Assembly: GCA_049419605.1 (NCBI GenBank)
Contig: JBMSKF010000005.1
Span: 58-64,057 of the forward strand
DNA from: Bacilli bacterium
GTDB lineage: Bacteria > Bacillota_I > Bacilli_A > RFN20 > CAG-826
Length of the DNA: 64,000 nucleotides
Reading direction: 5' to 3'
In this document: positions 1,327 through 55,138 of the stretch, piece by piece
How the letters are laid out: each line of letters starts with the position of its first letter
How positions within the stretch are numbered: the stretch's first letter is position 1
Notes under the pieces: model-generated
What the model saw: the letters and a program-made list of their open reading frames with translations, nothing else
The model's database searches: none
What the model was told of the DNA's origin: nothing
Position numbers and translations under genes: made by a program

Positions 1327-1375
1327 CCTTTTGAGGCAATAATATCGTTTTATCAAAAACTTATAAGGTTTCTAT

Positions 1376-1389
1376 TGTAAGCGCATACA
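1376..1389 (+). promoter_or_regulatory. cre/LacI-family operator-like pseudopalindrome upstream of the beta-glucan operon
   Basis: TGTAAGCGCATACA has one mismatch to cre consensus TGWAANCGNTNWCA. The half-sites are TGTAAGC and its near complement. It overlaps a TACAAT -10-like hexamer (1386-1391), 60 nt upstream of the ATG at 1450. Confidence 0.4.
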
Positions 1390-1449
1390 ATATATCTTAT
1401 GATGAAAGAAACCGATTTCCTTAATAAGGAAATTTAAAGGATATTCGAT

Positions 1450-4400
1450 ATGAAAACTTTTATTAGTGATCGTTATCAAAAACAAAAACCTTTTGCAGGC
1501 TTTTTACCTGGGATTGCTGGCAAAGAAGGACTTCCAATGTGGGTCTTTTATGTCAATCGTGGCCAGGCTATTAGTACCTTTGGTGTTCGAGATAAAAATG
1601 GAGCGATTGCAGAATTTTATCCAGCAAATCTAGCGTACGCTTATATTCATCAAAATGGATTTCGTACTTTCCTGAAATATAAAGGCGAAGTATATGAATG
1701 TTTTCAAGAAAAGAATGAACAACAAACTTTTACAGTAGATGCCCATGAAATCATCATTGAAGAAACCATCCAAAAATGGAATCTAAAGGTTAAAGTTACG
1801 TACGCAACTTTACCGAATATGCCACTTTCAGCCTTAATGCGAAAGGTTGATATTACTTCACTCGATGGAAAAGAAAAAAATTTAATTGTTATTGATGGAC
1901 TAGCGCAAATCCTACCCGCGGGCATTGATTATGGTGGTTATAAAGCGGTCAGTTATTTACTACAAAGTTGGATGGAAGTTCAAGAAAATGACAACCATGT
2001 CTTTTTAAAATTACGAGCGTCTACCGCAGACTCTAGTGAAGTCAAGGCTGTTGATGATGGAAATTTTTATACGTATATTGGTCTCAACCAAAAGCAATAT
2101 TTATACGATTACAAAGCGGTTTTTGCTCAAGATTCATCTTTTGTAACGCCTTATCAGTTGCAAACGCTTGATTATCAACAACTCATTAAACAAAAACAAG
2201 CCCCAGTTAATCAAGTGCCATCTGCCTTTGTAGTCAGTGAATTATCGGTCAAACAAACCACCACTTTTTATGGGGTCTTTGGTTACAGTCAAAGTCGATC
2301 CCAATTATCACCATTAGTTCAAAAAATGAACGCGACTTTTTTAGAAAATAAGTTTAAAGAAAATCAATTCGCTGTAGAAAACTTAACTTCAGAAATTAAG
2401 ACGCAAACATCAAAGCCAATGTTTGATTCCTACTTACAACAATGCTACTTGGATAATATTTTAAGAGGCGGTTATCCGATTCAATTTGAAACGCTAGATG
2501 GATCCATTGGTTATCATATTTATTCAAGAAAACATGGCGATTTAGAAAGAGATTATAATTTCTTTTCTCTAGAACCAAGTTATTTATCCCAAGGGAATGG
2601 TGCATTTAGAGATGTTCTACAAAATCGTAGAAACGATCTTTATTTTCATCCTGAAGTTGGCACGACGACAATTGCTCAATTTGCTTCTTTAATCCAAGCG
2701 GACGGATATAACCCCTTAAGTATAGAAGGGATTATGTTCACCTTTAAAGGTGATGCATCGAGTTACCCTGTGGCCATCCAAGATTTATTAAAGCAAGAAT
2801 TCACGCCTGGACAAGTTGCCAACTTAGCAGGGCAATTTCAATTGCCGGTCATGGAAACCGTAATCAAGATTATCAAACAATCTCATTATCACTTTAAAGC
2901 CACATTTGGTGAAGGTTATTGGGGTGATCATTTCACCTATTTTTTAGACTTAATTGAAACGTATTTAGATATTTATCCTGATCAAGTCGATTCATTATTT
3001 CAACAAAAACATCGCTATTTCTTGTCACCAGCCTTTGTTCAAAAGCGAGATGATAAATATATTTTAAAGAATGGAAAAGTTCGCCAATATCACGCAGTTC
3101 ATCATGACCATGGTGCGCCACAACGTGGATGGTTAAAACTCGCAAGTGGAGAAGAAGCCACCACTTCATTGTTTGGAAAGTTATTAACTTTAGTTTCAAA
3201 TAAGTTTGCGCAATTAGATCCTGAAGGTCTTGGTTTGATGTATGAAGCCGAAAGACCAGGTTGGAATGATGCGATGAATGGCGTACCTGGTTTATTTGGA
3301 TCAGGTGTTTCAGAAATGCTTGAGCTAAAACGTCTTGTTCAATTTTTACAACAACAAAAAATGACTGCCATAGAAGTGTTGGCTCCTTTAAATACCTTAA
3401 TCACTAGTTTATTAGCGGTCAAAGATGGTTCTTTATTTGATCAATGGTCAAAGAGGATGGATGCTTTAGAACGATATCGCGATCAACTAAAAGCCCCATT
3501 AACGACCACGACGATCAGTGCAGATTTAATTCAAAGCCTACTTACGCACATGGCGAAAACACTTCAAAGTTCAATGGAAAGATTATTAGCCATTCATCCT
3601 ATTCCTTACACCTATTTTATTTACGAAGTTGATCAGTATGATTTATTACCCAAAGCCAATGGCAACGCCATGCAAACTGTTCGTGCAAAATCTTTTAAAC
3701 GAGTCCCCTTGCCTCACTTCTTAGAAGCACCTGCTCGTATGCTTTCCAATGGATTTTTATCTCCAGAACAAGCGGCTAAGCTTTACCAAGCCATTCAACA
3801 ATCTCCTCTTTATGATGCCCCGTTAAAGATATATAAAACCAGTACGCCATTAGACCAACAATCCATGGAAATTGGACGTATTAGAGCATTTACACCAGGA
3901 TGGTTAGAACGTGAATCAGCATTTTTACACATGACGTATAAGTACATGCTTGGTTTATTGAAAGCAGAAGCATACCCATCTTTTTTTGAAGCGATGCAAC
4001 ATGGGTTAACTTGTTTTATGGATCCACAAATCTATGGCCGCTCACCTTTAGAAAACTCATCATTCATTGCCACGACCAATAATCCAGATAGTTCAAAACA
4101 TGGCCAAGGATTCTATGCTAGATTATCTGGTTCTACCGCAGAAGTTATCTCGATGTGGAAACGCCTATTATTAGGAAAAAAATTATTTTCACTAAAAAAT
4201 CATCAACTTCAATTTCACATTCAACCTATCATTCCTTTGGAATATTTCAAAGATGGGAAAATTGAAACCACATTGTTTGCCGATATTAAAATTCGTTTAA
4301 CCTTAACAGAACCTATAAAACCGACGGATAAAATTGTGTCAGTTTCTGGCTATCGATTATCTTACTTAAATCAAACTCAACCGATTGTCATCCAAGGTAC

Positions 4401-4482
4401 CACCATTGAAGGTGAACATGCCTTGGCGATTCGACAAAAACGTATACGAGAGATTGAAGTTTTATTAAAAGGAGGACAATAA
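1450..4482 (+). CDS. Large cytosolic glycoside phosphorylase-like protein (GH94/GH149/GH161-clan-like; candidate beta-1,3-glucan/laminarioligosaccharide phosphorylase)
   Basis: 1010 aa with no signal peptide. The ERPGWNDAMNG motif resembles the (D/G)WND general-acid motif of (alpha/alpha)6 phosphorylases. It is the first gene of an operon that also carries GH16 and GH30 genes. Confidence 0.5.
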   Translation: MKTFISDRYQKQKPFAGFLPGIAGKEGLPMWVFYVNRGQAISTFGVRDKNGAIAEFYPANLAYAYIHQNGFRTFLKYKGEVYECFQEKNEQQTFTVDAHEIIIEETIQKWNLKVKVTYATLPNMPLSALMRKVDITSLDGKEKNLIVIDGLAQILPAGIDYGGYKAVSYLLQSWMEVQENDNHVFLKLRASTADSSEVKAVDDGNFYTYIGLNQKQYLYDYKAVFAQDSSFVTPYQLQTLDYQQLIKQKQAPVNQVPSAFVVSELSVKQTTTFYGVFGYSQSRSQLSPLVQKMNATFLENKFKENQFAVENLTSEIKTQTSKPMFDSYLQQCYLDNILRGGYPIQFETLDGSIGYHIYSRKHGDLERDYNFFSLEPSYLSQGNGAFRDVLQNRRNDLYFHPEVGTTTIAQFASLIQADGYNPLSIEGIMFTFKGDASSYPVAIQDLLKQEFTPGQVANLAGQFQLPVMETVIKIIKQSHYHFKATFGEGYWGDHFTYFLDLIETYLDIYPDQVDSLFQQKHRYFLSPAFVQKRDDKYILKNGKVRQYHAVHHDHGAPQRGWLKLASGEEATTSLFGKLLTLVSNKFAQLDPEGLGLMYEAERPGWNDAMNGVPGLFGSGVSEMLELKRLVQFLQQQKMTAIEVLAPLNTLITSLLAVKDGSLFDQWSKRMDALERYRDQLKAPLTTTTISADLIQSLLTHMAKTLQSSMERLLAIHPIPYTYFIYEVDQYDLLPKANGNAMQTVRAKSFKRVPLPHFLEAPARMLSNGFLSPEQAAKLYQAIQQSPLYDAPLKIYKTSTPLDQQSMEIGRIRAFTPGWLERESAFLHMTYKYMLGLLKAEAYPSFFEAMQHGLTCFMDPQIYGRSPLENSSFIATTNNPDSSKHGQGFYARLSGSTAEVISMWKRLLLGKKLFSLKNHQLQFHIQPIIPLEYFKDGKIETTLFADIKIRLTLTEPIKPTDKIVSVSGYRLSYLNQTQPIVIQGTTIEGEHALAIRQKRIREIEVLLKGGQ

Positions 4483-4547
4483 CTAGCATCAACAATATAA
4501 GTAGGGAAAATTGTTCGCTATCTATCATCATGAAAGGAAATTTATTG

Positions 4548-7136
4548 ATGAAACATTATTGGAAAGGCCTATCCATTACGTTAGCAGCCCTCGTGTTAGC
4601 AGCGTGTGGAACCCCAAGTTCAAGTAGCCAAACGAGTTCCACAAGTACGAGTACTTTATCCTCGATTACGATTGCTGGAGCAAATGATGTTACCTTAGAA
4701 TTTGATGTCGATTTTAACTTTTTAACTGGCGTTACTGCTACTGGTAATAACGGCCAAGATTTTACATCGAGTATTACACTCTCTTCGATTTCTACCGCGG
4801 TTAATACTACAACGGGTGTTTTAGACACCACAAGAACTGGTGTTCATACCGTTCAATATCGTGTCCAATCTGGCACGATTGTTGCAACTAAATTTAGAAA
4901 TGTTACCGTTCAACAACCTCAATCCACAGGCGGTATGTTATTAAATCCAGACTTTGCTTTGGGTACTGCTGGTTGGACGGATCCAAGTGTTGTCTATAAC
5001 GAAAGTGGATCAAGTATTGACTTCGATATTGAAGATGGTGCATTAAAAGTAGTGGTTGTGGCAAGTCCTGTTGCCTATGCTCCACGCTTTGGACAAATGA
5101 ATGTACCCTTTGAAATCGACACCACATATGAAGTAAGCTTTAGAGCAAAATCCAGCGTAGTTAAACCCATTAACTTAAATGCTGGTGAATTATTATCCTC
5201 TGCTCCTTGGTTTGTTGACTTCAAACCTGGTCAACCAGAAATTAGAACGATTGGAACCGAATGGGCAACTTATTCCTATATCTTTACTCACCGTCTTGAT
5301 AACAAGCGTGGTGGTATTTTATTTGAATTAGGAACAGTCAGTGGTCAAAAAGTGGATGCCACGATGTACTTTGATGACATCACGATTGAAGAAGCAACTG
5401 CAGGTCCAGATGTGACCGCACCAAACTTCTCTGGTGTTTCTGCCACTGTCAGTGTTTTGGTGGGATCAACCTACGATCCATTAAATGGTGTCACCGCATT
5501 AGACATCGTTGATGGTGACTTAACGGATGAAATTTTAGTGGAAATTCTTGACAGCAATAACGCAGTCGTCAATGCCGTTGATACTTCTGTTCCTGCGGTG
5601 TACACAGTGAATTATTCTGTTGAAGACGCTGCAGGAAATGAAGCAACTGCCCAAACTATTGTCAATGTTGTAAGTTTAGTTTTCAAGAATGAAAACTTAT
5701 TGGCGAATGGTTCATTTGCAGAAGCGGTAGGAAATGAATGGAGTTTCTGGAGCCAAGATTGGGGTACAGCTCCTGTTGTGAATCGTTCGCAAAATGTTGA
5801 AGCTGGCACTTATACTTTAGACATCACCAATGGTGGTGATGCTGCTTGGGCGATTCAAATGAATCACGTCGGTGCTGAATTGGTTCAAGGTCAAACTTAC
5901 CGTTTATCATTCACAGGTTCCTCGACCGTTGCAAGAAAATTCTCAGCAGCGTTTGATACAGGGGCCCCAAACTATGATAACTATGCGCGTAAAAATGGAT
6001 TTGAATTAGGGACAACGAGTTCTACTGTTGATCACATTTTTACCGTAACCAAAGCTACTGGCATCATTCGTTTAACCATTGAATTTGGTTCACAAGATGG
6101 ATTTGCAAACGGTATCGTGACGTTATCTGAAGTTCGTTTACAACGATTAGATGCTTCTCCATTAATTAGTGATTCCAAATTTGCGATGTCTGGCTGGCGT
6201 CATTTCGTTAATGACTGGGATGGCACGGTTGCCACTTCCGGAATCGTCGCTGGCGAATATAAAATGACCATTACAAAGACTGTTGCCTTAAGTCCAACTG
6301 CAGATAATTGGAAATTACAAATTATCCAAGATAATGTTGCCTTCGGCGAAACTGTTGATGATGGTCGTATGAATTTAACAGCGGAAAAATCTTATACCTT
6401 AAGTTTTGACATGTATGCCTCACAAAACATTAATGTCACCACATTTATTGGTGCCCCTGGTGTTTGGGTTAACTATGTTCCAGAAGCAAACCGTGTCAAC
6501 GCAGTCACCACAAGTAAACAAACCATTACGATTCCTGTGAGTACGGTTGGGGCAACCTTAAATGGTAAGGAAAAAATTTCCTTTGAATTTGGTTCTTCCT
6601 TCTCGAACTTTGAATCCGGAAATGAATTTGTTGCGATTGATAATGTGGTCTTAAAAGAAGGTAACACCGTTTTACCAAACATCATTAACGGTGATATGAA
6701 CGCTATTTTAGGCGGACACACCTTCTTTACAGAAAATGGTGGTGCGATGACAAGAGGCGCCAATGGTGGTGCTTCTATTGAAGTTCCTGCTTTAGGCGGC
6801 GCTGCTTATCAACCTCATTATTACTATATTTTCCCAACGCTTGCCAAAGGTAAATATGAAGTGAAGATCGCATTAACCAGTTCGGTGACTCGTGATTTAC
6901 GCTTTAATATTATTCTTCCTGATGCGGGTTATGCTTCGATCCTTCCTGAAAACTTTGTTGATTTCCGCGTCACTGCAGATACCCCTTATGTCTTTACCGT
7001 TTCGTTCGAAGTGGTCAATCCATTAACGAATGTGAAACTTGAATTAGATCTAGGGACACTTGGTGGTGATAAGGTTTCCTTACCAGGAACTTTCTTAATT
7101 TCAGAAGTACTCGTCTACGCAAATTACAATAGCTAA
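4548..7136 (+). CDS. Surface lipoprotein with two Ig-like (DUF5011-type) modules and four CBM4/9/22-like beta-sandwich modules; glycan-binding protein
   Basis: Lipobox LAAC-GTPSSSS followed by a Ser/Thr linker. There are four roughly 155-aa repeats, each starting with a N(P/G)xF..GW-type motif and ending FDDITIEE / LSEVRLQ / IDNVVLKE / ISEVLVY. The DVTAP...DIVDGDLTD module is Ig-like. The ATG at 4548 has an AAAGGAAA RBS; the track start at 4530 does not. Confidence 0.65.
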   Translation: MKHYWKGLSITLAALVLAACGTPSSSSQTSSTSTSTLSSITIAGANDVTLEFDVDFNFLTGVTATGNNGQDFTSSITLSSISTAVNTTTGVLDTTRTGVHTVQYRVQSGTIVATKFRNVTVQQPQSTGGMLLNPDFALGTAGWTDPSVVYNESGSSIDFDIEDGALKVVVVASPVAYAPRFGQMNVPFEIDTTYEVSFRAKSSVVKPINLNAGELLSSAPWFVDFKPGQPEIRTIGTEWATYSYIFTHRLDNKRGGILFELGTVSGQKVDATMYFDDITIEEATAGPDVTAPNFSGVSATVSVLVGSTYDPLNGVTALDIVDGDLTDEILVEILDSNNAVVNAVDTSVPAVYTVNYSVEDAAGNEATAQTIVNVVSLVFKNENLLANGSFAEAVGNEWSFWSQDWGTAPVVNRSQNVEAGTYTLDITNGGDAAWAIQMNHVGAELVQGQTYRLSFTGSSTVARKFSAAFDTGAPNYDNYARKNGFELGTTSSTVDHIFTVTKATGIIRLTIEFGSQDGFANGIVTLSEVRLQRLDASPLISDSKFAMSGWRHFVNDWDGTVATSGIVAGEYKMTITKTVALSPTADNWKLQIIQDNVAFGETVDDGRMNLTAEKSYTLSFDMYASQNINVTTFIGAPGVWVNYVPEANRVNAVTTSKQTITIPVSTVGATLNGKEKISFEFGSSFSNFESGNEFVAIDNVVLKEGNTVLPNIINGDMNAILGGHTFFTENGGAMTRGANGGASIEVPALGGAAYQPHYYYIFPTLAKGKYEVKIALTSSVTRDLRFNIILPDAGYASILPENFVDFRVTADTPYVFTVSFEVVNPLTNVKLELDLGTLGGDKVSLPGTFLISEVLVYANYNS

Positions 7137-7151
7137 AGGAGGCTTAGGATA

Positions 7152-8612
7152 GTGAAACATAAAGCTAAACTATCCGTTGTAGCCTTGTTTGTCCTTGCTG
7201 GATGTGGGGGAACCCCATCCAGTAGTGGCAACACTACAACGAGTGAAACGTTACAACCTGTAACGTTGTCTTATGCAGATTGGGGTAATCAAGAACTCAA
7301 TCAACGCATGATTGATTTATTTGAAGCAAAGTATCCGCATATTACGGTCGAACTTCGACAAGATATTGTGGGTGCAGGTTCACAATTTACAGGCAACCTC
7401 GTCACTGCCGCTCAAGCTGGATTACTCCCTGACGTTTTTGCAACCGATAACGTCCCTACCGTTATCAATGCTGGTTTAACGTTGGATGTGGCTCAGTACT
7501 GGGATGCTGATGAAGATGCTCAGTTAGTCTATGACAATATTGCGCTTGCCGGAGTTTATAACGGCAAACGTTATGCCGTTCCGTCATTCCAATTCTTAAA
7601 AGGGATTTTAATTAATCTCAATATTTTTGAACGCGCCAACTTGCAAACCGTTCCAGGAAAGTATCGTATTGATAATGATGGGTATCCTGTAAAGGATTGG
7701 ACATTTGAAGAATTTGTGAATATTGCAAAAGACATTAAAAACTTTGATTTAGTGAATACCGAAAATTTAGTTGTTGGGATGGACACGTGGTATGGATCAC
7801 CTGATTTCCAACAAGTGTGGCCAATGATGCAAAATGCTGAAACCCAATACGATACATGGGATGGTGAACAATTTCATTACACCTCCGCAGATTGGATCAG
7901 TGCGATGCAAGCTAAAGTTGCCCTTCATCAATTAACCGATGGCACGACCACACGTTTTACACCAGAAGATTATGATGCCGAAGATAATGACGAATTAAGA
8001 ACGTATATGATTCAAACCGGTTATGCGGCGATGGACATTGAAGGTTCTTGGCAATTCTGGGTCATTAAAGATGCAATCGATAATCGTGATTTTGAATTAG
8101 GTTTCTGGCCTTATCCACAAGGTGATGCTGGATTATTCCCTCCTACCATTTTAGATTTCCAAGCCGTTTCATCTCAAACTGAGCATCCAGAAGAAGCTTA
8201 CTTACTAGCCAAATGGATGACATTTGGTCAAGATGGCTGGAATGCTCGTTTATCATTATTAGAAGAAGATCGTGAAGAAGCAATCGCGGAAGGGTTAACG
8301 CCTGATTTCTTAGACCGTTTCCCAATTGCGGATTATCCTGATGTTTGGACACGAGTCGAAGGCCTTGTAGAAGGAATTGAAGGGATCGATGCAATTTTTG
8401 ATCGTATTCAATATTCAAAACCAGACTTAGACAAATGGTTACCAGGTTATAAAGATTTCTGGGCATGGGTATACACGCCTGAAAATCCATTTAACTTTGA
8501 TAACTTAGTCGCCGAAGGACCCAATGCAGTGCCAACTTATGCAGCCGCATGGGAAGCACAAATTAATATGCTCGTAGCAGAACAACTTGCTGCCTTAGGT
8601 GCAAGTCAATAA
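7152..8612 (+). CDS. CUT1-type ABC sugar substrate-binding lipoprotein
   Basis: GTG start 9 nt after an AAGGAGG RBS. Lipobox LAGC-GGTPSSSG. At 486 aa it matches the size and composition of family-1 extracellular solute-binding proteins. Confidence 0.8.
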   Translation: MKHKAKLSVVALFVLAGCGGTPSSSGNTTTSETLQPVTLSYADWGNQELNQRMIDLFEAKYPHITVELRQDIVGAGSQFTGNLVTAAQAGLLPDVFATDNVPTVINAGLTLDVAQYWDADEDAQLVYDNIALAGVYNGKRYAVPSFQFLKGILINLNIFERANLQTVPGKYRIDNDGYPVKDWTFEEFVNIAKDIKNFDLVNTENLVVGMDTWYGSPDFQQVWPMMQNAETQYDTWDGEQFHYTSADWISAMQAKVALHQLTDGTTTRFTPEDYDAEDNDELRTYMIQTGYAAMDIEGSWQFWVIKDAIDNRDFELGFWPYPQGDAGLFPPTILDFQAVSSQTEHPEEAYLLAKWMTFGQDGWNARLSLLEEDREEAIAEGLTPDFLDRFPIADYPDVWTRVEGLVEGIEGIDAIFDRIQYSKPDLDKWLPGYKDFWAWVYTPENPFNFDNLVAEGPNAVPTYAAAWEAQINMLVAEQLAALGASQ

Positions 8613-8620
8613 TCACCACA

Positions 8621-8646
8621 GGGAGATTTCCTCACGGAAATCTCCC
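8621..8646 (+). promoter_or_regulatory. Perfect 11-bp intra-operon hairpin immediately after the SBP gene (attenuator or mRNA 3'-end stabiliser)
   Basis: GGGAGATTTCC-tcac-GGAAATCTCCC. The downstream sequence ttgattcg is only weakly T-rich. This is the only strong secondary structure within the 22-kb operon. Confidence 0.6.
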
Positions 8647-8658
8647 TTGATTCGATGC

Positions 8659-11600: not shown

Positions 11601-11685
11601 TTACACCTTCCAAGGTGAAATTTTACGACCGTATCCTGTGCCGACGATTGATAATATAGATTGGTGGTTGACTCAACATGCTTAA
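8659..11685 (+). CDS. TM-anchored giant extracellular protein: N-terminal TM, CBM-like beta-sandwich regions, a helical region and a C-terminal family-1 solute-binding-protein domain
   Basis: The ATG at 8659 ([12 protein letters not shown]...) lies after the hairpin. TM segment [22 protein letters not shown]6/35-like pattern is present ([12 protein letters not shown]...VYINGE...INTISLEA). From about nt 10411 the protein becomes SBP-like ([22 protein letters not shown]...PDVAVGV...). The stop overlaps the next permease start by 8 nt. Confidence 0.6.
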
Positions 11686-13452: not shown

Positions 13453-13453
13453 T

Positions 13454-17855: not shown

Positions 17856-18919
17856 AGACAAAAAGACCTTCTATTTTTAAACAATTCTTAACGCGTCTTT
17901 TGAATTTGATGGAATCAATGAGTCAATTTTACCAAGCTAAGATTCAACCTCCCTTAGACCGTTTTGTTTATCGCTTAAAACATAATTTTATTTATCGAGA
18001 AATCGGTAATACAGTGAAAATATTTTCCTTAATCACCATTCGTATTACAAGAAAACGTCGGCATGCATTTTATGGCTATCTATTTATTTTGATATGGTTA
18101 ATTGGGATTGCGATTTTTACCTTATATCCCTTAGGATATTCATTTTATTTAAGTTTTCATGAAGCCTATTACAACTTACAAGAAGGCGTTATTACCACAT
18201 TCATCGGCTTCACGAATTATGTCAACATATTCAGAAGTCAAACCCTTGTGCCTGCTTATAGCAATTATTTAGGAAGAATGGTGGTTGCGGTTCCCATCAT
18301 CATTGTCTTTTCAATCATCATTGCCGTCCTCGTCAATATGCCAATCAAGACCAAAAGTTTGTGGCGAACTGTTTTCTTTTTACCGGTGATTATTTCAACG
18401 GGTCCTGTCATCAATGAATTGAATGCTCAAAGTGCGATTACTTTACCCAATTTACAGGCGAGCGGAATCTATAGTTATATCGTCAATAATTTACCAAGCT
18501 TTTTAGCAGATCCTTTAACCACTGTCATTAATTCCATGCTTTTAATCCTATGGTATGCAGGGATTCCTATCCTCATTTATTTAGCAGGATTACAAAAAAT
18601 TGATCCGAGTTTATATGAAGCCGCCAGTATGGATGGCGCCTCACCTTGGATGCGTTTTTGGAAAATTACCTTACCATCATTAATGCCGTTTACCGGTATT
18701 TCCATTGTCTATGTTGTGGTATCGATGTCCTTATTTGTTGAACCAGGTGGCATATTAGATTTAACAAGGACCCACATGTTAGTGGGGGCTCCTGATTCTG
18801 CATTCTGGTTTGGATATGGATATGCAGCAGCGATGGCGTGGGTATATTTCATTTGTATGGTCTTATTGATTCTAGTTTTTACAAGTCTTACCCGAGAAAA
18901 AAGAGGTAAAGTAAAATGA
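17852..18919 (+). CDS. ABC sugar transporter permease with a long N-terminal extension (LplB-like)
   Basis: ATGA start/stop overlap with the upstream gene. EAA loop LYEAASMDGASPWMRFWKITLPSLMP. 355 aa. Confidence 0.85.
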   Translation: MKTKRPSIFKQFLTRLLNLMESMSQFYQAKIQPPLDRFVYRLKHNFIYREIGNTVKIFSLITIRITRKRRHAFYGYLFILIWLIGIAIFTLYPLGYSFYLSFHEAYYNLQEGVITTFIGFTNYVNIFRSQTLVPAYSNYLGRMVVAVPIIIVFSIIIAVLVNMPIKTKSLWRTVFFLPVIISTGPVINELNAQSAITLPNLQASGIYSYIVNNLPSFLADPLTTVINSMLLILWYAGIPILIYLAGLQKIDPSLYEAASMDGASPWMRFWKITLPSLMPFTGISIVYVVVSMSLFVEPGGILDLTRTHMLVGAPDSAFWFGYGYAAAMAWVYFICMVLLILVFTSLTREKRGKVK

Positions 18920-19854
18920 AACTTTCCTCACTCATTTCAGTCTCCCAACAACAAAAAATGAAAAAAGTTTGGTTAGGAAAAACCTTAACTGATGGTTTGC
19001 TATACAAGGTTGTGATTTATTTATTGTTGATTAGTTTTAGTTATATTTATTTATATCCTCTGTTATTTATGTTGATCAACAGTTTAAAATCTGTTGATGA
19101 TTTGATTAATCCTGGTGTGCAATGGATTCCCACCGTCTTAAAGTGGGAAAACTATGAACGCGCCTTTCAAGTTTTAAGTTTGCCAAACTCGTTGATTGAT
19201 TCAACCGTCTATGTTTTAAAGGTCAGTGTCAGTGCGACTTTATCGAGTGCTTTAATTGGTTATGGTTTTGCTCGATTTGATTTCCCTTTTAAACGCTTAT
19301 TCTTTGCAATTATGTTAGCGACCTTTATTCTCCCTCAACAAGTGACCATGGTTGCGAATATGCTTATCTTTAGAGAATTAGAAATCATTTCAACTGAATG
19401 GGCGATGCTGTTACCAGCGATGACAGGGCAAGGTATCAATGCTGCAATTTACATTTTGATTTTTTACACATTCTATCGAACGATTCCAGGCATCCTCATT
19501 GAATCTGCAGAAGTGGATGGGGCTGGTCAATTAAGAATTTTCCGAACCATCATCCTGCCTTTAGCGATACCTTCTTTTGTCATCGTTTTCTTATTTAGTT
19601 TTGTTTGGTATTGGAATGAATCCTTTATTACCGGCTTATATGTAGGTGATAAGGTGACCTTGCCTTTATGGTTACAAGCTTTTAGAGCTTCGTATGAAAC
19701 AATTTTCCCACCTGGTACACCCGGAGCAGAACTAAATGAAGCCATTTTACTTTCAGGAAATATGTTGACGATATTACCTTTACTTTTACTGTATTTCTTT
19801 GGTCAAAAATTATTTACGCAAAGTATCGATAAAACGGGAATCACTGGAGAATAG
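18916..19854 (+). CDS. ABC sugar transporter permease (LplC-like)
   Basis: ATGA overlap with the upstream gene. EAA loop ESAEVDGAGQLRIFRTIILPLAIP. 312 aa. Confidence 0.85.
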   Translation: MKLSSLISVSQQQKMKKVWLGKTLTDGLLYKVVIYLLLISFSYIYLYPLLFMLINSLKSVDDLINPGVQWIPTVLKWENYERAFQVLSLPNSLIDSTVYVLKVSVSATLSSALIGYGFARFDFPFKRLFFAIMLATFILPQQVTMVANMLIFRELEIISTEWAMLLPAMTGQGINAAIYILIFYTFYRTIPGILIESAEVDGAGQLRIFRTIILPLAIPSFVIVFLFSFVWYWNESFITGLYVGDKVTLPLWLQAFRASYETIFPPGTPGAELNEAILLSGNMLTILPLLLLYFFGQKLFTQSIDKTGITGE

Positions 19855-19855
19855 T

Positions 19856-21007
19856 ATGAAAAAAATATGGCCTTTAACATTCTTAATCGTGACCGTCACG
19901 TCTTGTGTCAATCCAAGTGTAAGCTCATCCTCATCAAGTGGTGTTCCTAATGGAAGGTTACCATTAACCCCTGTGGAAGGTTGTGGAGTACAAACGATTG
20001 ATAACCAATGGGTATGTACATGGACTGATGAATTTAATGGAGATGATCTAAATTCTGATCATTGGAATATTGAAGTGAATGGCGATGGTGGTGGTAACCA
20101 AGAAGCTCAATACTACCGCAGTGAAAATATCTCAGTCAGTGATGGCACTTTAAAAATTACAGCTAAAAAAGAAAATTATTTAGGGAAGCAATATACCAGT
20201 GGTCGAATTAATTCCCGTTATAAAGTGAATCCTCAATTTGGTCGAGTAACGTTTCGCGCCAAAATGCCTGCAGGAAGAGGAACTTGGGCAGCAGTATGGA
20301 TGTTACCGTTGTTCAATCGCTTTGGACAATGGCCTAATAGTGGTGAAATCGATATCTTAGAATATGTCGGTTATGACCCAGGCACCGTTTTTTCGGCAAC
20401 GCATACGACTAAATTCAATCATACAAAAAATAACAATCCCAGTGCCTCTAGAGTATTAGTCGATCCTGAAAATCAATTCTATGAATATGAAATGATTTGG
20501 TTACCAGGAGAAATTAGGATGTTTGTGGAAGGCAATCCTTATGGTACCTATCGATATGTTCCACAATTTAATCAAGACGTCCCTTATGATGATGTATTTC
20601 CATTTCAAGAAGAATTTTATTTCATCATTAATCTTGCGGTTGGTGGTAGTTGGGGTGGAGTTCAAGGCATTGATCCGCTTGCCTTTCCTACTGTATTTGA
20701 AATCGATTATTTACGCATATATGAATGGGATTATGCCAATCATGATCTCACACCACCTGAAAAACCAACAGCCCTCGCAACTTCGCAACTCGAGAATACC
20801 ATTCATTGGAATCGCCCAAATGATGACACATGGGTTAGCCATTACGCGATTTATTTAGATGGTGTGAAATATCGCGAAGCAAAAATTAATCAATTTACAT
20901 TCGTTGGACTTGAAGAACGGAGTTACCAAGTTCAAGTTGAAGCGATTGATTTTGTTGGTAGAACTTCACCCTTATCCGATGCTATTACCTTTAACTTTGG
21001 AGGGTAA
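19856..21007 (+). CDS. Surface lipoprotein GH16 endo-beta-1,3-glucanase (laminarinase) with a C-terminal FN3-like domain
   Basis: The ATG at 19856 follows a GGAGAA RBS. Lipobox VTSC plus a poly-Ser linker. GH16 catalytic motif WPNSGEIDILE. The C-terminal roughly 90 aa (PPEKPTALATSQLENTIHWNRP...YQVQVEAID) is FN3-like. Confidence 0.85.
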   Translation: MKKIWPLTFLIVTVTSCVNPSVSSSSSSGVPNGRLPLTPVEGCGVQTIDNQWVCTWTDEFNGDDLNSDHWNIEVNGDGGGNQEAQYYRSENISVSDGTLKITAKKENYLGKQYTSGRINSRYKVNPQFGRVTFRAKMPAGRGTWAAVWMLPLFNRFGQWPNSGEIDILEYVGYDPGTVFSATHTTKFNHTKNNNPSASRVLVDPENQFYEYEMIWLPGEIRMFVEGNPYGTYRYVPQFNQDVPYDDVFPFQEEFYFIINLAVGGSWGGVQGIDPLAFPTVFEIDYLRIYEWDYANHDLTPPEKPTALATSQLENTIHWNRPNDDTWVSHYAIYLDGVKYREAKINQFTFVGLEERSYQVQVEAIDFVGRTSPLSDAITFNFGG

Positions 21008-21011
21008 ACTC

Positions 21012-21728
21012 ATGCTCAAACCACATCAAAAACTTGTCTTTAAAGAAACGTTTCAATCTTTGAATCGTGATGTTTGGAATTTAGAAGTAGGTGAAAAATG
21101 GTTTAACGATGAACGACAATGTTATGTGGATTCACCCAAAAACCTCCAGATCACTCCACAGGGCTTACGAATTATTGCCGATATCAATCCTGCTGAAAAA
21201 AAGTGTCGATATCAATCCATTCGTTTAAATACAAAAGATAAAAAAGAATGGCAGTATGGAACGTTTATTGCTCGCGCCAAACTTCCTCATGGAAAAGGTT
21301 CCTGGCCCGCAATTTGGTTATTAGGTCACGATATTGGAACTGTAAAGTGGCCATTGTGTGGTGAGATTGACTTATTAGAAATGGTGGGACATGATCCAGA
21401 AGTTTTACATTTTAGTTTGCATTCACAGTTACATAATCACATTATTAAAACGCAACGGACGAAGTTTCAAAAAATTCCTGGCATCATGGAAGGTTTTCAT
21501 GATTATAAAATGATTTGGCGTCCCGAAGGCATTAGTTTTTTTATTGATGATATTCATTATGTAACCTTTGAGAAGAAACCAAATGATCCAATTGAAAGTT
21601 GGCCTTTTGACAAACCCTATTATCTGCTCATTAATATTGCGGTTGGAGGTACTTGGGGTGGAAAAATTGAAGAACAAGACATGCCATATGTGATGGATGT
21701 TGAAAAAATTGAGGTGTATCAAGAATGA
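21012..21728 (+). CDS. Cytosolic GH16 beta-glucanase paralog
   Basis: The ATG at 21012 lies 8 nt after a GGAGGG RBS. There is no signal peptide. GH16 motif WPLCGEIDLLE is present, and the domain ends INIAVGGTWGG. Confidence 0.8.
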   Translation: MLKPHQKLVFKETFQSLNRDVWNLEVGEKWFNDERQCYVDSPKNLQITPQGLRIIADINPAEKKCRYQSIRLNTKDKKEWQYGTFIARAKLPHGKGSWPAIWLLGHDIGTVKWPLCGEIDLLEMVGHDPEVLHFSLHSQLHNHIIKTQRTKFQKIPGIMEGFHDYKMIWRPEGISFFIDDIHYVTFEKKPNDPIESWPFDKPYYLLINIAVGGTWGGKIEEQDMPYVMDVEKIEVYQE

Positions 21729-23047
21729 AAGTCATTGTCAGTACTGCTTCAGGAGCTCGCTGGGCAAATCAACCTGTGACACTCTCAAAGGTGCCGATGG
21801 GGACAAGTTTAACTTTAAATCCTAACCAAACCTATCAAACCCATCTTGGATTTGGTGGTTCCCTTACTGAATCAGCGGCCTACACGATCAAAGAAAACCA
21901 TGATGAAGCCACCGTGCAAAACTTATTGGATTTATATTTTTCCAAAGATGGATTAGATTATCACTTTACTCGTATCCATATGAATTCCAGTGATTTCGCC
22001 TTAGGAAATTATACTTACGTTGAATATGGTGATAAGACATTATCAACTTTTTCTATCGCCAGAGAATCTTGGTATGTCTTACCGATGTTAAAAAAGATTT
22101 TAGCCAAACAAAAAGATTTAAAAATTTTGATTTCACCTTGGTCGCCTCCAGGATGGATGAAAGATAATTTACAAATGAATCATGGCGGGGTCTTAAAACC
22201 AGAATTCCATTCATTATGGGCACAATACTACATCAAGTTTATTCAAGCATTGCAACAAGAAGGCATTCAACCCTGGGGTGTCACCGTACAAAATGAACCT
22301 GCTGCTAAACAAGTTTGGGACTCATGCTTATACACACCTGAACAAGAACGAGACTTTATTAAATTACATTTAGGTCCACTATTGCAAAAATATTTTCATG
22401 ATCAAATTAAACTTCTTGTATGGGACCATAATCGGGATATCATGGTTGAAAGAGTTACACCCATCTATGCTGATCCCAAAGCCAGTCAATTTGTTTGGGG
22501 GACAGCCTTCCATTGGTATGGAGAAGAAAAGTTTGAGAATGTCGGTAAAACAAAAGCATTGTTTCCGGATAAACATTTATTGTTCACAGAAGGTTGCATC
22601 GAAGGAGGTCCTCGACCAGGATCTTGGGATACCGGAGAACGATATGCCCGTAATATTATCGGAGATTTTTTACAAGGGAATGAAGGATTCATCGACTGGA
22701 ATTTAGTGTTAAACGAACAAGGGGGTCCTAATCATGTTGGAAATTATTGTGATGCCCCTATTTTATTTGATCGCCGATCTCAAACTGTGATTAAAAATAG
22801 TTCCTATTATGTGATTGGTCATTTTTCAAAATTTATTCCACCTCAATCCAAGCGCATCCAATTCATTGGAAAACTTCCTGATGGCATGCTTGGTGTTGCT
22901 TATCAAACCCCTGAACAAAACAATGTGATGGTCTTATTAAACACCACCACGCTTCCTCAAGTTTTTTCGATGGAAATTCAAGGAACTTGGCAAACCTTTA
23001 CTTTAGAGGCGAAAGCGATTGCCACGATCATCAAAGATGAAAAGTAA
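21725..23047 (+). CDS. GH30 family glycosidase (glucosylceramidase/beta-1,6-glucosidase-like), cytosolic
   Basis: FGGSLTESAAY, VTVQNEP (acid/base Glu) and LLFTEGC (nucleophile Glu). 440 aa with no signal peptide. Confidence 0.8.
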   Translation: MKVIVSTASGARWANQPVTLSKVPMGTSLTLNPNQTYQTHLGFGGSLTESAAYTIKENHDEATVQNLLDLYFSKDGLDYHFTRIHMNSSDFALGNYTYVEYGDKTLSTFSIARESWYVLPMLKKILAKQKDLKILISPWSPPGWMKDNLQMNHGGVLKPEFHSLWAQYYIKFIQALQQEGIQPWGVTVQNEPAAKQVWDSCLYTPEQERDFIKLHLGPLLQKYFHDQIKLLVWDHNRDIMVERVTPIYADPKASQFVWGTAFHWYGEEKFENVGKTKALFPDKHLLFTEGCIEGGPRPGSWDTGERYARNIIGDFLQGNEGFIDWNLVLNEQGGPNHVGNYCDAPILFDRRSQTVIKNSSYYVIGHFSKFIPPQSKRIQFIGKLPDGMLGVAYQTPEQNNVMVLLNTTTLPQVFSMEIQGTWQTFTLEAKAIATIIKDEK

Positions 23048-24068
23048 ATTACGTAAACTTACCATTCATCAATTAGCTGCAGATCTTTCGTTATCTCCAG
23101 GAACCGTCAGTAAAATTCTCAATGATAAAGGTAGTGTCACTGAAGAAACTAGAAATCGGGTGCTAGCGCGGGCAAAAGCATTAGGATATGTTGCAAGCCA
23201 TTCTGCAAGAATCTTAAAGGCAGAGCACACATGGACTATTGGCGTTGTCTTTTCAGACATTGCTTCATTCGGTTTGGAACATCCTTTCTTTGGATCGATT
23301 ATTCAAGCTTTTAAAAACCTCATTGAAGATAAGGGTTACGAAATTGTGTTTATTCCTAAAAAAATAGGTGCGCAAGAACAAACCTATTTACAATGGGCTT
23401 TAAATAAAAGTGTGGATGGTGTTTTGTTATTAACCGGCGACATCAACGCTTCTGATATTCAAGAATTAATCCGCGCTGATATTCCATGTGTATCCGTTGA
23501 CATGGTGGATCCTTTACTTGCCACGGTGATTAGTGATGATTTTCAAGGCATTGAACTTATTTTTAAACACTTTTTACAGCTTGGATTTCAACGGATTTTT
23601 GCTTTTTCTGGATCGACGTTATCGAGAGCCTATCAACAACGAACCGAAGCCTTTGAAAAATTAACCTTACAATTTAAAACAGATCGCGCTAAGGAATTTT
23701 ATTTTTCTACTGATAAATATGGCGTCAAGCATTATTACGAACAAGCACTTCTATGGATTCAAAGTTGGCAAGTCAAACCACAAGCGATTATTGCGTTTTC
23801 TGATGATATTGCGATGGGACTGATTATGGCGTTACAAGAATTAGGTTATCGCGTTCCTGAAGATATTTCCGTATCTGGATATGATGATATTCAATTTGCA
23901 GGTTTGTTTTCCCCACCATTAACGACCATTCGCCAAGATAAAAAAAGGATTGCAGAAACCGCAGCCTTAAAATTATTGTCGATGATTGAGTCTGACGATC
24001 AAACCAAGGGACTTACGAAAGTTCCTGTACAACTCATCGTTCGTCATTCCACTAAACGGATCAAATAA
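23037..24068 (+). CDS. LacI-family transcriptional regulator
   Basis: N-terminal HTH LTIHQLAADLSLSPGTVSKILN followed by a periplasmic-binding-protein-like sugar-binding core. It is the last gene of the operon. The ATG at 23037 is preferred over the TTG at 23019. Confidence 0.85.
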   Translation: MKSKLRKLTIHQLAADLSLSPGTVSKILNDKGSVTEETRNRVLARAKALGYVASHSARILKAEHTWTIGVVFSDIASFGLEHPFFGSIIQAFKNLIEDKGYEIVFIPKKIGAQEQTYLQWALNKSVDGVLLLTGDINASDIQELIRADIPCVSVDMVDPLLATVISDDFQGIELIFKHFLQLGFQRIFAFSGSTLSRAYQQRTEAFEKLTLQFKTDRAKEFYFSTDKYGVKHYYEQALLWIQSWQVKPQAIIAFSDDIAMGLIMALQELGYRVPEDISVSGYDDIQFAGLFSPPLTTIRQDKKRIAETAALKLLSMIESDDQTKGLTKVPVQLIVRHSTKRIK

Positions 24069-26068: not shown

Positions 26069-26072
26069 GGAT

Positions 26073-55106: not shown

Positions 55107-55138
55107 GAAAAAACCAATCTACATGGATTGGTTTTTTA
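55107..55138. terminator. Bidirectional rho-independent terminator between convergent genes
   Basis: AAAAAACCAATC-tacatg-GATTGGTTTTTT, with A/T runs on both sides. It overlaps the pullulanase stop codon. Confidence 0.8.

What the first reader, a model, noticed from the sequence alone, without database searches (positions are those of the whole stretch)
1376..24068. Complete 14-gene laminarin-type (beta-1,3/1,6-glucan) utilisation operon using only lipid or TM anchoring
All 14 genes are on one strand with gaps of 47 nt or less. One upstream operator-like site (1376..1389) and one internal hairpin are the only non-coding structures. The parts fit a coherent pathway. A surface four-CBM lipoprotein and a GH16 lipoprotein bind and cut beta-1,3-glucan outside the cell. 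SBPs and permeases import the oligosaccharides. A cytosolic GH16, a GH30 (beta-1,6 side-chain removal is known for GH30 in marine laminarin loci) and a 1010-aa phosphorylase-like protein finish degradation inside. A LacI regulator closes the operon. No ABC ATPase is encoded, which implies a shared MsmK/MsmX-type ATPase elsewhere. A locus of this size devoted to one polysaccharide is notable if the host is a small-genome Mollicute.
Basis: partly seen in the sequence, partly recalled or inferred. Interest (0 to 1): 0.6.

Follow-up and report, generated by a model that had tools for sequence, protein, structure and literature searches.

The report
Beta-1,3-glucan operon in wall-less bacterium
This is a real 14-gene operon for eating laminarin-type beta-1,3-glucan in a wall-less aquatic bacterium with a roughly 1-Mb genome. 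The enzymes are of known kinds, but they surround a widespread, never-studied eight-gene sugar-uptake cassette that the same genome reuses for beta-1,2-glucan.

Summary
Fourteen + strand genes (1450-24068) are separated by gaps of 47 nt or less. There is one conserved promoter/operator region and one conserved hairpin.

- Gene 1 is a GH161 beta-1,3-glucan phosphorylase (E about 5e-196 to solved GH161 structures).
- Both GH16 genes are laminarinase-type.
- The GH30 belongs to the glucosylceramidase / beta-1,6-glucanase group, not the xylanase group.

The host genome is 0.998 Mb in 38 contigs and 92.6% complete. It reads TGA as stop, has no PBP or SEDS genes, and groups with Acholeplasmatales.

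GH161 + GH16 + GH30/GH3 + ABC loci are already published for Bacillus weihaiensis and Acholeplasma laidlawii, so the operon as a whole is a new member of a known kind.

The unusual part is the eight-gene core, genes 3-10: SBP, giant membrane-anchored SBP, permease pair, NHL-TPR-Yip1 protein, DUF5696 protein, second permease pair.
- The core is syntenic in about 70 Acholeplasmatales and Izemoplasmatales loci.
- A paralogous copy sits in this same genome inside a beta-1,2-glucan locus (GH144-like, GH3, SOGP).
- DUF5696 models with a GH129/GH101-like fold, and its tree splits by substrate type.

I found no paper that mentions DUF5696.

The parts
1375..1403 (+). Promoter: -35 TTGTAA (1375-1380) and -10 TATGAT (1398-1403), 17-nt spacer
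   Evidence: Consensus scan. Both hexamers are conserved in the 10 same-genus genomes whose upstream sequence was recovered.
1376..1389 (.). Operator-like palindrome O1, TGTAAGCGCATACA (cre/LacI type), overlapping the -35
   Evidence: One mismatch to TGWAANCGNTNWCA. Conserved in same-genus genomes; one variant, TGTAAGCGATTACA, keeps the palindrome.
1407..1420 (.). Second operator-like palindrome O2, AGAAACCGATTTCC, just downstream of the -10. Its right half (ATTTCC) can also pair with GGAAAT at 1428-1433 as a short 5'UTR stem.
   Evidence: Invariant in the same-genus genomes examined. The same -35/O1/-10/O2 layout occurs in the genome's beta-1,2-glucan locus.
1450..4482 (+). g1: cytosolic GH161 beta-1,3-(oligo)glucan phosphorylase, 1010 aa
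   Evidence: PDB 9qqk (GH161A) 5.5e-196 and 9h8v 4.8e-196 over the full length. No signal peptide or TM segment. Present in 17 of 17 same-genus genomes.
4530..7136 (+). g2: surface lipoprotein (lipobox LAAC). Layout is Ig-like, CBM_4_9, Ig-like, CBM_4_9, then two unassigned modules of about 160 aa.
   Evidence: Pfam. Modules 3 and 4 are not significantly similar to module 2. Identical RNA contigs occur in a metatranscriptome.
7152..8612 (+). g3: family-1 solute-binding lipoprotein (lipobox LAGC), 486 aa
   Evidence: PDB 22hh 4e-21, plus other sugar SBPs. dN/dS 0.04.
8620..8647 (+). Intercistronic hairpin with a 12-bp perfect stem, a 4-nt loop and no U tail
   Evidence: dG -22.9 kcal/mol, z -4.9. 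It is the only perfect spaced inverted repeat in the locus. Relatives carry four different stem sequences at the same place.
8659..11685 (+). g4: membrane-anchored giant binding protein, 1008 aa. TM 15-34, two beta-sandwich domains (about 88-250 and 275-408), a helical bundle (410-531) and a family-1 SBP domain (537-1005).
   Evidence: AF2 model, pLDDT 84, pTM 0.80. The SBP domain matches oligosaccharide binders such as 5ysb sophoro-oligosaccharide SBP and 9xf5. No Pfam or NCBIfam family.
11678..13452 (+). g5 and g6: first ABC permease pair (BPD_transp_1)
   Evidence: Pfam. These are the most conserved genes of the locus, dN/dS 0.012.
13454..15496 (+). g7: extracellular NHL beta-propeller plus TPR, fused to a C-terminal polytopic Yip1 membrane domain, 680 aa
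   Evidence: Pfam NHL 7e-15, Yip1 3e-07, TPR. Hydropathy shows TM segments between residues 427 and 674.
15489..17855 (+). g8: N-terminally TM-anchored DUF5696 ectoprotein, 788 aa, with a glycosidase-like fold
   Evidence: PF18952 2e-123. AF2 model pLDDT 84.8, pTM 0.86. Foldseek: GH129 5opq 7e-30, then GH101, GH36, GH31. No sequence-level PDB hit.
17852..19854 (+). g9 and g10: second ABC permease pair (BPD_transp_1)
   Evidence: Pfam. Syntenic in all relatives examined.
19856..21007 (+). g11: surface GH16 laminarinase lipoprotein (lipobox VTSC) with a C-terminal FN3-like module
   Evidence: PDB 3iln laminarinase 2e-58. GEIDILE catalytic motif. Weak fn3 match.
21012..21728 (+). g12: cytosolic GH16 laminarinase, 238 aa, no signal peptide
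   Evidence: PDB 5wut 1.3e-50. GEIDLLE motif. ATG 21012 lies behind a GGAGG.
21725..23047 (+). g13: cytosolic GH30, probably an exo-beta-1,6-glucosidase or beta-glucosidase
   Evidence: Pfam GH30 3e-73. PDB SrfJ 8e-83, GBA 1e-79, BT3312 1e-57. NEP and FTE motifs are present.
23019..24068 (+). g14: LacI-family regulator (start TTG 23019 or ATG 23034)
   Evidence: Pfam LacI and Peripla_BP_3. NCBIfam RbsR/PurR-like, below the cut-offs.

Best explanation
The region is a single-promoter utilisation locus for beta-1,3-glucan with beta-1,6 branches (laminarin or chrysolaminarin type). Its host is a wall-less, roughly 1-Mb aquatic relative of Acholeplasma.

Proposed mechanism, with each step marked as shown or inferred:
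1. Capture and first cut (inferred from homology and lipoboxes). The CBM4/9 lipoprotein g2 holds the polymer at the membrane. The GH16 lipoprotein g11 cuts it endo-wise.
2. Uptake (inferred). Oligosaccharides are taken by the lipoprotein SBP g3 and by the membrane-anchored giant SBP g4. They pass through two permease dimers, g5/g6 and g9/g10. Energy comes from a MalK/UgpC-type ATPase encoded elsewhere in the genome.
3. Accessory parts (role unknown). The NHL-TPR-Yip1 membrane protein g7 and the glycosidase-fold ectoprotein g8 are fixed parts of this eight-gene uptake cassette. My best guess is that they hold or process long glucan chains at the transporter.
4. Cytosolic breakdown (inferred from families). 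GH16 g12 shortens the imported chains. GH30 g13 removes beta-1,6-linked glucose. GH161 g1 phosphorolyses the beta-1,3 chain to glucose-1-phosphate, which a phosphoglucomutase feeds into glycolysis.
5. Regulation (inferred). LacI g14, and probably a CcpA-like protein, act on two conserved palindromes that flank the -10 box. The conserved hairpin after the SBP gene probably raises the level of SBP transcript relative to the distal genes.
For: - Gene order, coupling and topology.
- Family assignments: GH161 at 5e-196; GH16 laminarinase-type; GH30 in the glucosylceramidase / beta-1,6-glucanase group; CBM_4_9 and BPD_transp_1; SBP folds.
- All 14 genes are under purifying selection, dN/dS 0.01-0.22.
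- The promoter with O1 and O2 is conserved across same-genus genomes. The same layout occurs in the sister locus.
- The hairpin is kept through fully different stem sequences.
- MalK-type ATPases lie elsewhere in the genome. Two phosphohexomutases are present.
- The g3-g11 block is syntenic in about 70 loci.
- Published precedents: GH161 + GH16 + GH30/GH3 + ABC loci, one of them induced by laminarin (PMC6484121); a GH30 exo-beta-1,6-glucosidase that debranches laminarin (PMC6246565).
- Contigs identical to g2 and g3 occur in an aquatic metatranscriptome.
Against: - No activity, binding or expression was measured. Specificities rest on homology.
- The GH30 is closer to the SrfJ/GBA-type enzymes than to any proven beta-1,6 enzyme, so it may be a general beta-glucosidase.
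- PapP-type GH161 stops at the disaccharide (PMC6484121). The genome has no GH1 and no laminaribiose phosphorylase, so the last step is unassigned.
- GH16 laminarinase-type enzymes can also cut mixed-linkage glucan; 7wwc, a beta-1,3(4)-glucanase, is among the top hits.
- The single-transcript claim rests on gene spacing and the absence of terminator-like sites.
- The metatranscriptome evidence consists of short contigs and covers only g2 and g3.
- The roles of g4, g7 and g8 are guesses.
Confidence: 0.8

Rival explanations
1. The locus mainly targets another beta-glucan, such as mixed-linkage beta-1,3/1,4-glucan (lichenan type) or bacterial or fungal beta-1,3-glucan, rather than algal laminarin.
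For: A beta-1,3(4)-glucanase (7wwc) is among the top GH16 hits. Members of the CBM4/9 families bind several different beta-glucans and xylan (my own knowledge). The organism occurs in estuary, lagoon and lake metagenomes, where several glucan sources exist.
Against: GH161 is a beta-1,3-specific phosphorylase family (PMC6484121). No GH5, GH9 or GH26 cellulase/lichenase-type gene and no cellobiose phosphorylase is present in the locus. A GH30 in the locus fits beta-1,6 branches. The nearest GH16 structures are laminarinases.
Confidence: 0.12
2. DUF5696 (g8) is a real surface glycoside hydrolase of a new family that acts on the polymer or on large oligosaccharides. It would be an enzyme that merely happens to be encoded between the permease genes, not a structural part of the transporter.
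For: - Confident model with a GH129/GH101/GH36/GH31-like three-domain fold.
- Acidic residues kept in at least 75% of 56 diverse members, including D516 at the end of barrel strand 4, plus E435, D532, D651 and D686.
- Its tree splits by locus substrate type, beta-1,3 versus beta-1,2.
- It is the most diverged cassette part between the two paralogous cassettes, at 25% identity.
Against: - The structural neighbours all act on alpha-linked sugars, whereas the loci here are for beta-glucans.
- D516 is N in 6 of 56 members, and no acid is invariant in the barrel.
- The sharpest conserved motif, PGYxxIPDGxGALxR, lies in the N-terminal beta-sandwich region of the model (residues 196-358), upstream of the first barrel strand (386-394).
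- Its fixed position between NHL-Yip1 and the second permease pair in every locus suggests a complex.
Confidence: 0.3
3. The 14 genes are not one transcription unit. Internal promoters or the hairpin split them into an SBP/phosphorylase unit and one or more downstream units.
For: The hairpin after g3 is strong and conserved. The sister beta-1,2 locus has an internal promoter/operator block between genes. Promoter-like hexamers occur inside the genes, at chance frequency.
Against: The hairpin has no U tail. Nine of the 13 junctions overlap or are 4 nt or less apart. Only the 1375-1420 block shows a phylogenetic footprint among the regions I examined. Contigs from a possibly RNA library cross the g6/g7, g7/g8 and g10/g11 junctions in a relative, but that library may contain DNA.
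Confidence: 0.25

Closest known systems
Laminarin utilisation locus of Bacillus weihaiensis Alg07, and the GH161 cluster of Acholeplasma laidlawii PG-8A (Kuhaudomlarp et al. 2019, PMC6484121)
   Same: Monoderm or wall-less hosts. GH161 phosphorylase together with a GH16 laminarinase, a GH30 or GH3, ABC permeases, and cytosolic end-processing. The B. weihaiensis locus is induced by laminarin.
   Different: - As described in that paper, those clusters have an ordinary ABC importer and a GH1, GH3 or GH94 enzyme for the disaccharide.
- This locus has two SBPs, two permease pairs, the NHL-TPR-Yip1 protein and DUF5696.
- This locus has a second, cytosolic GH16 and no dedicated disaccharide enzyme.
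- The GH30 here is cytosolic, whereas the B. weihaiensis GH30 is predicted to be secreted.
Bacteroidetes laminarin PULs, for example Formosa spp. (Unfried et al. 2018, PMC6246565)
   Same: The same logic of surface binding, endo-cleavage, uptake of oligosaccharides, GH30 debranching of beta-1,6 glucose, and a GH149 phosphorylase. GH149 is related to GH161.
   Different: Uptake there is through SusC/SusD across an outer membrane. Here there is no outer membrane or wall, and uptake is by lipid- or TM-anchored binding proteins and ABC permeases.
CUT1-family ABC oligosaccharide importers that share an MsmK/MsmX-type ATPase, and the Listeria innocua sophoro-oligosaccharide system (Lin1841 SBP, PDB 5ysb)
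   Same: Family-1 SBP fold, two BPD_transp_1 permeases, and no ATPase gene in the operon. Lin1841 is the best sequence hit of the g4 SBP domain.
   Different: This locus has two permease pairs in one cassette. One SBP is fused to a TM anchor, two beta-sandwich domains and a helical bundle. Two extra conserved membrane or surface proteins are present.
GH129 and GH101 glycosidases (ZgGH129 5opq, NagBb 5wzp, SpGH101 5a55), as the nearest folds to DUF5696
   Same: An N-terminal beta-sandwich, a (beta/alpha)8-like barrel and a C-terminal beta-sandwich. Foldseek E 7e-30, TM about 0.7 normalised to the target.
   Different: Sequence identity is 9-12%. There is no profile-level match to any PDB chain. 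The catalytic positions are not clearly conserved. The known enzymes act on alpha-linked GalNAc or anhydrogalactose, not on beta-glucans.
   Same: A bacterial Yip1-domain membrane protein genetically tied to an ABC transporter.
   Different: YknXYZ is an exporter-type system for toxin protection. YknW has no NHL propeller or TPR ectodomain.

Membership tests
Gram-positive-type beta-1,3-glucan (laminarin) utilisation locus | Secreted or surface endo-beta-1,3-glucanase | tested here: met
   g11 has a lipobox and hits GH16 laminarinases (3iln 2e-58). The ExDxxE motif is present.
Gram-positive-type beta-1,3-glucan (laminarin) utilisation locus | Oligosaccharide ABC importer (SBP plus two permeases) in the locus | tested here: met
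   Two SBPs and four BPD_transp_1 permeases.
Gram-positive-type beta-1,3-glucan (laminarin) utilisation locus | Cytosolic enzyme that depolymerises beta-1,3-oligosaccharides | tested here: met
   GH161 at 5e-196 and a cytosolic GH16. The disaccharide step is not covered.
Gram-positive-type beta-1,3-glucan (laminarin) utilisation locus | Induction by, and growth on, laminarin | not testable with these tools
   The only expression evidence is short metatranscriptome contigs identical to g2 and g3.
GH161 | Full-length sequence similarity to characterised or solved GH161 proteins | tested here: met
   9qqk (GH161A) aligns over residues 2-1005 at 5.5e-196. The GH149 NCBIfam model gives only 84 bits.
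GH161 | Phosphorolysis of beta-1,3-glucan yielding glucose-1-phosphate | not testable with these tools
   Needs an enzyme assay.
GH16 laminarinase subfamily (GH16_3-like) | Nearest characterised relatives are laminarinases rather than agarases, carrageenases or lichenases, and the ExDxxE motif is present | tested here: met
   The top 20 PDB hits for both proteins are laminarinases or beta-1,3(4)-glucanases. Motifs are GEIDILE and GEIDLLE. No formal dbCAN subfamily call was possible.
GH30 (subfamily 1-3 group) | GH30 TIM barrel plus C-terminal beta-sandwich with the acid/base and nucleophile glutamates | tested here: met
   PF02055 3e-73 and PF17189 2e-08. NEP and FTE motifs are present.
GH30 (subfamily 1-3 group) | Specificity for beta-1,6-glucosidic bonds | tested here: inconclusive
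   The BT3312 endo-1,6-beta-glucanase model scores 249 bits against a cut-off of 700. The protein is closer to SrfJ and GBA.
cre / LacI-family operator | 14-nt palindrome matching TGWAANCGNTNWCA, placed at a promoter | tested here: met
   One mismatch; overlaps the -35; conserved in same-genus genomes. Binding by g14 or by the CcpA-like protein was not testable.
GH129 / GH101 (candidate family for DUF5696) | Sequence-profile membership | tested here: not met
   No PDB hit with either the single sequence or the profile.
GH129 / GH101 (candidate family for DUF5696) | Conserved catalytic Asp on barrel strand 4 and an acid/base on strand 6 | tested here: inconclusive
   D516 is D or E in 43 of 56 members and N in 6. 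No conserved acid follows the strand at 582-585.
Mollicutes in the narrow sense (Mycoplasma/Spiroplasma type) | TGA read as tryptophan | tested here: not met
   All 14 ORFs are intact under table 11 and end at TGA, TAA or TAG. Table 4 only lengthens them slightly.
Wall-less Acholeplasma-like bacteria | No peptidoglycan polymerases, a small genome, and relatives in Acholeplasmatales | tested here: met
   No PF00905 and no PF01098 match, while all 10 wall-bearing control bacteria match. The genome is 0.998 Mb at 92.6% completeness. The DUF5696 tree nests it among Acholeplasmataceae sequences.

The most novel reading that the evidence does not exclude
Genes 3-10 would encode one multi-subunit uptake machine of a new type for long beta-glucan chains in bacteria without an outer membrane. 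In this reading, the NHL-TPR-Yip1 protein scaffolds two different permease dimers. The CBM-bearing, TM-anchored giant SBP and the glycosidase-fold DUF5696 protein would capture polymer-length chains, then thread or trim them. That would make it a functional counterpart of SusC/D 'selfish' uptake.

This genome would then offer a natural specificity swap. It has two paralogous machines, one wired to beta-1,3 enzymes and one to beta-1,2 enzymes, and DUF5696, the propeller and the SBP domain are the parts that diverge between them.
Probability: 0.3. Interest if true: 0.8.

Novelty: new variant of a known kind. Interest (0 to 1): 0.55.

Why it matters
Laminarin and chrysolaminarin are major algal carbon stores. 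This locus shows how a wall-less planktonic bacterium of about 1 Mb can specialise on them. The two beta-glucan loci together take up at least about 46 kb, or 4.6% of the assembly.

The locus also places a large uncharacterised protein set in a context where the substrate is unusually well defined. That set is DUF5696 (about 5,300 clusters at 50% identity), its NHL-Yip1 partner and the giant SBP. A paralogous copy for a different glucan sits in the same cell. This makes the function of the cassette directly testable, and several cultured relatives carry it: Peloplasma aerotolerans, Haploplasma modicum, Liberiplasma polymorphum and Paracholeplasma vituli.

Tried and rejected
- Genetic code 4. 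Rejected: all genes are intact under table 11.
- Known RNA elements in 1-25000. Only the tRNA was found.
- The hairpin as an intrinsic terminator. Rejected: there is no U tail.
- Literature on DUF5696. No paper holds the word. Searches for Acholeplasmataceae with laminarin, and for freshwater Acholeplasmatales, found nothing relevant.
- A sequence-level link between DUF5696 and any solved structure. None was found, even with a profile.
- Assigning modules 3 and 4 of g2 to a CBM family. No significant Pfam or pairwise match.
- Assigning the N-terminal 550 aa of g4 by Pfam, NCBIfam or Foldseek. The SBP domain dominates the fold hits, and no family was named.
- A laminaribiose phosphorylase or GH1 elsewhere in the genome. 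None.
- Using the metatranscriptomes to prove a single transcript. The contigs are too short, or the library type is uncertain.


Full report
OBSERVATION

Under table 11 the region 1450-24068 holds 14 intact ORFs on the + strand. Table 4 opens no additional frame, so TGA is a stop codon here. I used curated starts: g4 ATG 8659, g6 ATG 12574, g11 ATG 19856, and g12 ATG 21012 preceded by GGAGG. With these starts every junction is an overlap or a gap of at most 47 nt. None of the 14 products has an ABC ATPase domain.

A bidirectional terminator (1166-1193) and a minus-strand tRNA-Ala(CGC) (1208-1283) separate the locus from the upstream isochorismatase-family gene. At the far end, g14 overlaps a convergent gene at 24061-24651.

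FAMILY ASSIGNMENTS

- g1 (1010 aa, no signal peptide) aligns end to end with two solved GH161 phosphorylases: 9qqk at 5.5e-196 and 9h8v at 4.8e-196.
- g2 is a lipoprotein with the layout Ig-like, CBM_4_9, Ig-like, CBM_4_9, followed by two modules of about 160 aa that I could not assign. 'Four-CBM' is therefore only half verified.
- g3 is a family-1 SBP lipoprotein.
- g5/g6 and g9/g10 are two pairs of BPD_transp_1 permeases.
- g11 (lipoprotein) and g12 (cytosolic) are both GH16. Their best structural relatives are laminarinases (3iln 2e-58, 5wut 1e-50), and both have the ExDxxE motif.
- g13 is a cytosolic GH30. It is nearest to SrfJ and human glucosylceramidase (1e-83, 1e-80) and to the BT3312 endo-beta-1,6-glucanase (1e-57). 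Xylanases score 1e-16 or worse.
- g14 is a LacI-family regulator.

It is not met.

THE THREE GENES WITHOUT A KNOWN ROLE

g4. It has an N-terminal TM helix. Its AlphaFold model (pLDDT 84, pTM 0.80) then shows two beta-sandwich domains, a helical bundle and a family-1 SBP domain. The nearest relatives of the SBP domain bind long or cyclic oligosaccharides: the sophoro-oligosaccharide SBP Lin1841, a cycloisomalto-oligosaccharide SBP, and MalE proteins.

g7. It combines an extracellular NHL propeller and TPR with a polytopic Yip1 membrane domain.

g8. It is a TM-anchored DUF5696 protein (2e-123). Its model (pLDDT 84.8, pTM 0.86) is a beta-sandwich, barrel, beta-sandwich architecture. It is closest to GH129 (5opq, 7e-30), then GH101, GH36 and GH31. 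Neither the single sequence nor a profile hits any PDB chain.

The DUF5696 family is large: 5,291 clusters at 50% identity with E of 1e-3 or better, and 3,346 with E of 1e-30 or better. In a 56-member alignment the invariant residues are mostly Gly, Pro, Tyr and Asn. The sharpest motif is PGYxxIPDGxGALxR, which lies in the N-terminal beta-sandwich region of the model (residues 196-358), upstream of the first barrel strand. Positions that are acidic in at least 75% of members are E243, D275, D299, E435, D516, D532, D651 and D686. Whether the protein is catalytic therefore remains open.

No paper in the library contains the word 'DUF5696'. NCBIfam has no model for g4 or g8.

HOST

The window is contig C5 of a 998,323-bp, 38-contig assembly rated 92.6% complete. 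The assembly has no transpeptidase and no FtsW/RodA family gene, while all ten wall-bearing control bacteria have both.

The closest DUF5696 relatives come from river, lake and estuary MAGs labelled Bacillota or Bacilli. Next come Acholeplasmataceae, Mariniplasma, Peloplasma, Haploplasma, and then Izemoplasma and Liberiplasma. In the DUF5696 tree the window's lineage sits inside the Acholeplasmataceae sequences. The sequence is found in estuary, lagoon, lake and 'marine' metagenomes.

The locus is 2.3% of the assembly.

CONSERVATION

GH161 is present in 17 of 17 same-genus genomes, which are 0.7-1.0 Mb in size. Genes g2 to g14 are syntenic in the close freshwater clade. The block g3-g11 is syntenic in about 70 loci across Acholeplasmatales and Izemoplasmatales. 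All 14 genes show dN/dS between 0.01 and 0.22, with synonymous sites near saturation.

REGULATORY DNA

Upstream of g1, same-genus genomes share an almost invariant block while the flanking sequence is unalignable. The shared block is:

ATTGTAAGCGCATACAAGnTATnnTATGATAAAAGAAACCGATTTCC

It contains four elements:
- the -35, TTGTAA;
- the -10, TATGAT (1398-1403);

The same order of elements occurs in an intergenic region of the genome's second glucan locus: TTGCAA, TGTAACCGCTTTCA, TATAAT, GAAACGTTTC. An exact cre-consensus site also lies upstream of a pullulanase-type gene in this window, at 58650-58663.

Besides the two locus-encoded LacI proteins, the genome encodes a LacI protein whose best model is CcpA. 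Its score of 207 bits is below the equivalog cut-off. Which protein binds which site is inference.

The hairpin after g3 has a 12-bp perfect stem at 8620-8647 and no U tail. In relatives it is replaced by four unrelated stem sequences that fold equally well at the same position. This is evidence for a selected RNA structure. Most likely it is a stabiliser or partial attenuator that favours the SBP message.

SECOND LOCUS

Contig C23 is 7.7 kb. It begins inside a giant SBP gene and then carries two permeases, an NHL-Yip1 gene and a DUF5696 gene. Contig C11 begins inside a permease gene and probably continues C23; that join is inferred. Together they hold a paralogous cassette followed by:
- two PF10091 genes (the GH144 beta-1,2-glucanase family);
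- a CBM_4_9 protein;
- a GH13 gene;
- a LacI regulator;
- a GH3 gene;
- a 1,2-beta-oligoglucan phosphorylase (SOGP, GH94);
- a CotH gene.

The same pairing of cassette with GH144-like, GH3 and SOGP genes occurs in Paracholeplasma vituli, and with two GH144-like genes but GH35 in place of GH3/SOGP in an Anaerolineae MAG; a third Bacillota MAG locus has matching gene sizes but I did not run it through Pfam. The DUF5696 tree splits by locus type with 100/99 support. This genome's second copy falls in the beta-1,2 group.

Identity between the two cassettes of this genome differs by part:
- g5 and g6 permeases: 62% and 56%;
- g9 and g10 permeases: 44% each;
- g4 SBP domain: 43%;
- g7: 32%;
- g8: 25%.

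The exposed proteins are therefore the parts that change with the substrate.

ENERGY AND DOWNSTREAM STEPS

A stand-alone 365-aa MalK/UgpC-type ATPase sits among maltodextrin genes on C6. A second one, of 524 aa, lies inside a complete CUT1 operon on C1. Two phosphohexomutases are present. There is no GH1 and no laminaribiose phosphorylase.

The characterised GH161 enzyme PapP stops at the disaccharide (PMC6484121). The last step is therefore unassigned. Candidates are g13, the GH3 of the other locus, or a GH161 that accepts DP2.

COMPARISON WITH WHAT IS KNOWN

Kuhaudomlarp et al. 2019 (PMC6484121) describe two relevant loci. One is a laminarin-induced locus in Bacillus weihaiensis with GH161, GH30, GH1 and GH16. 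The other is a cluster in Acholeplasma laidlawii with GH161, two permeases, GH16 and GH3. Unfried et al. 2018 (PMC6246565) show that a GH30 exo-beta-1,6-glucosidase debranches laminarin in Formosa PULs, which also contain GH149.

The enzyme logic of this operon is therefore known. What is not described is the eight-gene cassette at its centre.

EARLIER NOTES OF THIS SCAN

Earlier notes report the same cassette in at least 60 other genomes, next to other enzymes. I treat these as leads only.

EXPRESSION

An aquatic metatranscriptome holds small contigs identical to g2 (4718-5354) and g3 (8001-8161). A second library, whose RNA or DNA status is uncertain, holds contigs from a roughly 93%-identical relative that cross the g6/g7, g7/g8 and g10/g11 junctions. 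This is weak support for expression and gives no proof of a single transcript.

VERDICT

The operon is a new member of a published kind of locus. Its core cassette is the part worth following up.

Noticed in passing
G000 contigs C23 (L097:1-7663) and C11 (L096:1-15849): A second, paralogous eight-gene cassette in the same roughly 1-Mb genome. It is followed by two GH144-like genes, a CBM_4_9 protein, GH13, LacI, GH3, SOGP (GH94) and CotH, which makes it a probable beta-1,2-glucan utilisation locus. The join between C23 and C11 is inferred.
   Followed up: partly
L096:2855-2915 (G000:C11): An internal promoter of the beta-1,2 locus has the same layout as the g1 promoter: TTGCAA, TGTAACCGCTTTCA, TATAAT, GAAACGTTTC.
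   Followed up: partly
window 58650-58663: An exact cre-consensus palindrome, TGTAACCGCTAACA, lies in the divergent intergenic region upstream of a minus-strand 228-aa ORF and a 913-aa pullulanase-type GH13 gene (55136-57877).
   Followed up: partly
window 1208-1283 (- strand): A stand-alone tRNA-Ala with anticodon CGC lies between a bidirectional terminator (1166-1193) and the operon promoter.
   Followed up: no
L098:3937-5499 (G000:C26): A third GH16 gene in the genome, 520 aa, with FN3 and CBM6/CBM35 modules, lies outside both glucan loci.
   Followed up: no
L054:7828-9885 (Haploplasma modicum ATCC 29102): The NHL-TPR-Yip1 gene of the syntenic cassette appears split into two ORFs (7828-9303 and 9400-9885). 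This could be a frameshift, a pseudogene or a sequencing error.
   Followed up: no
L101:1426-3000 (G000:C1): A MalK/UgpC-type ABC ATPase of 524 aa matches the family models in two separate stretches, so it seems to carry an insertion of about 150 aa. It lies inside a complete CUT1 operon.
   Followed up: no
many genomes of the same order: Positions about 295-410 of the DUF5696 Pfam model give weak sub-threshold matches to ORFs of about 430-620 aa in many genomes that lack the cassette. This may be a distant relation to another barrel glycosidase family.
   Followed up: no
window 24731-27080: Directly downstream of the operon are an MFS/Atg22-like transporter and a protein related to zinc-dependent phospholipase C. 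Both are syntenic in the close relatives L012 and L007.
   Followed up: no
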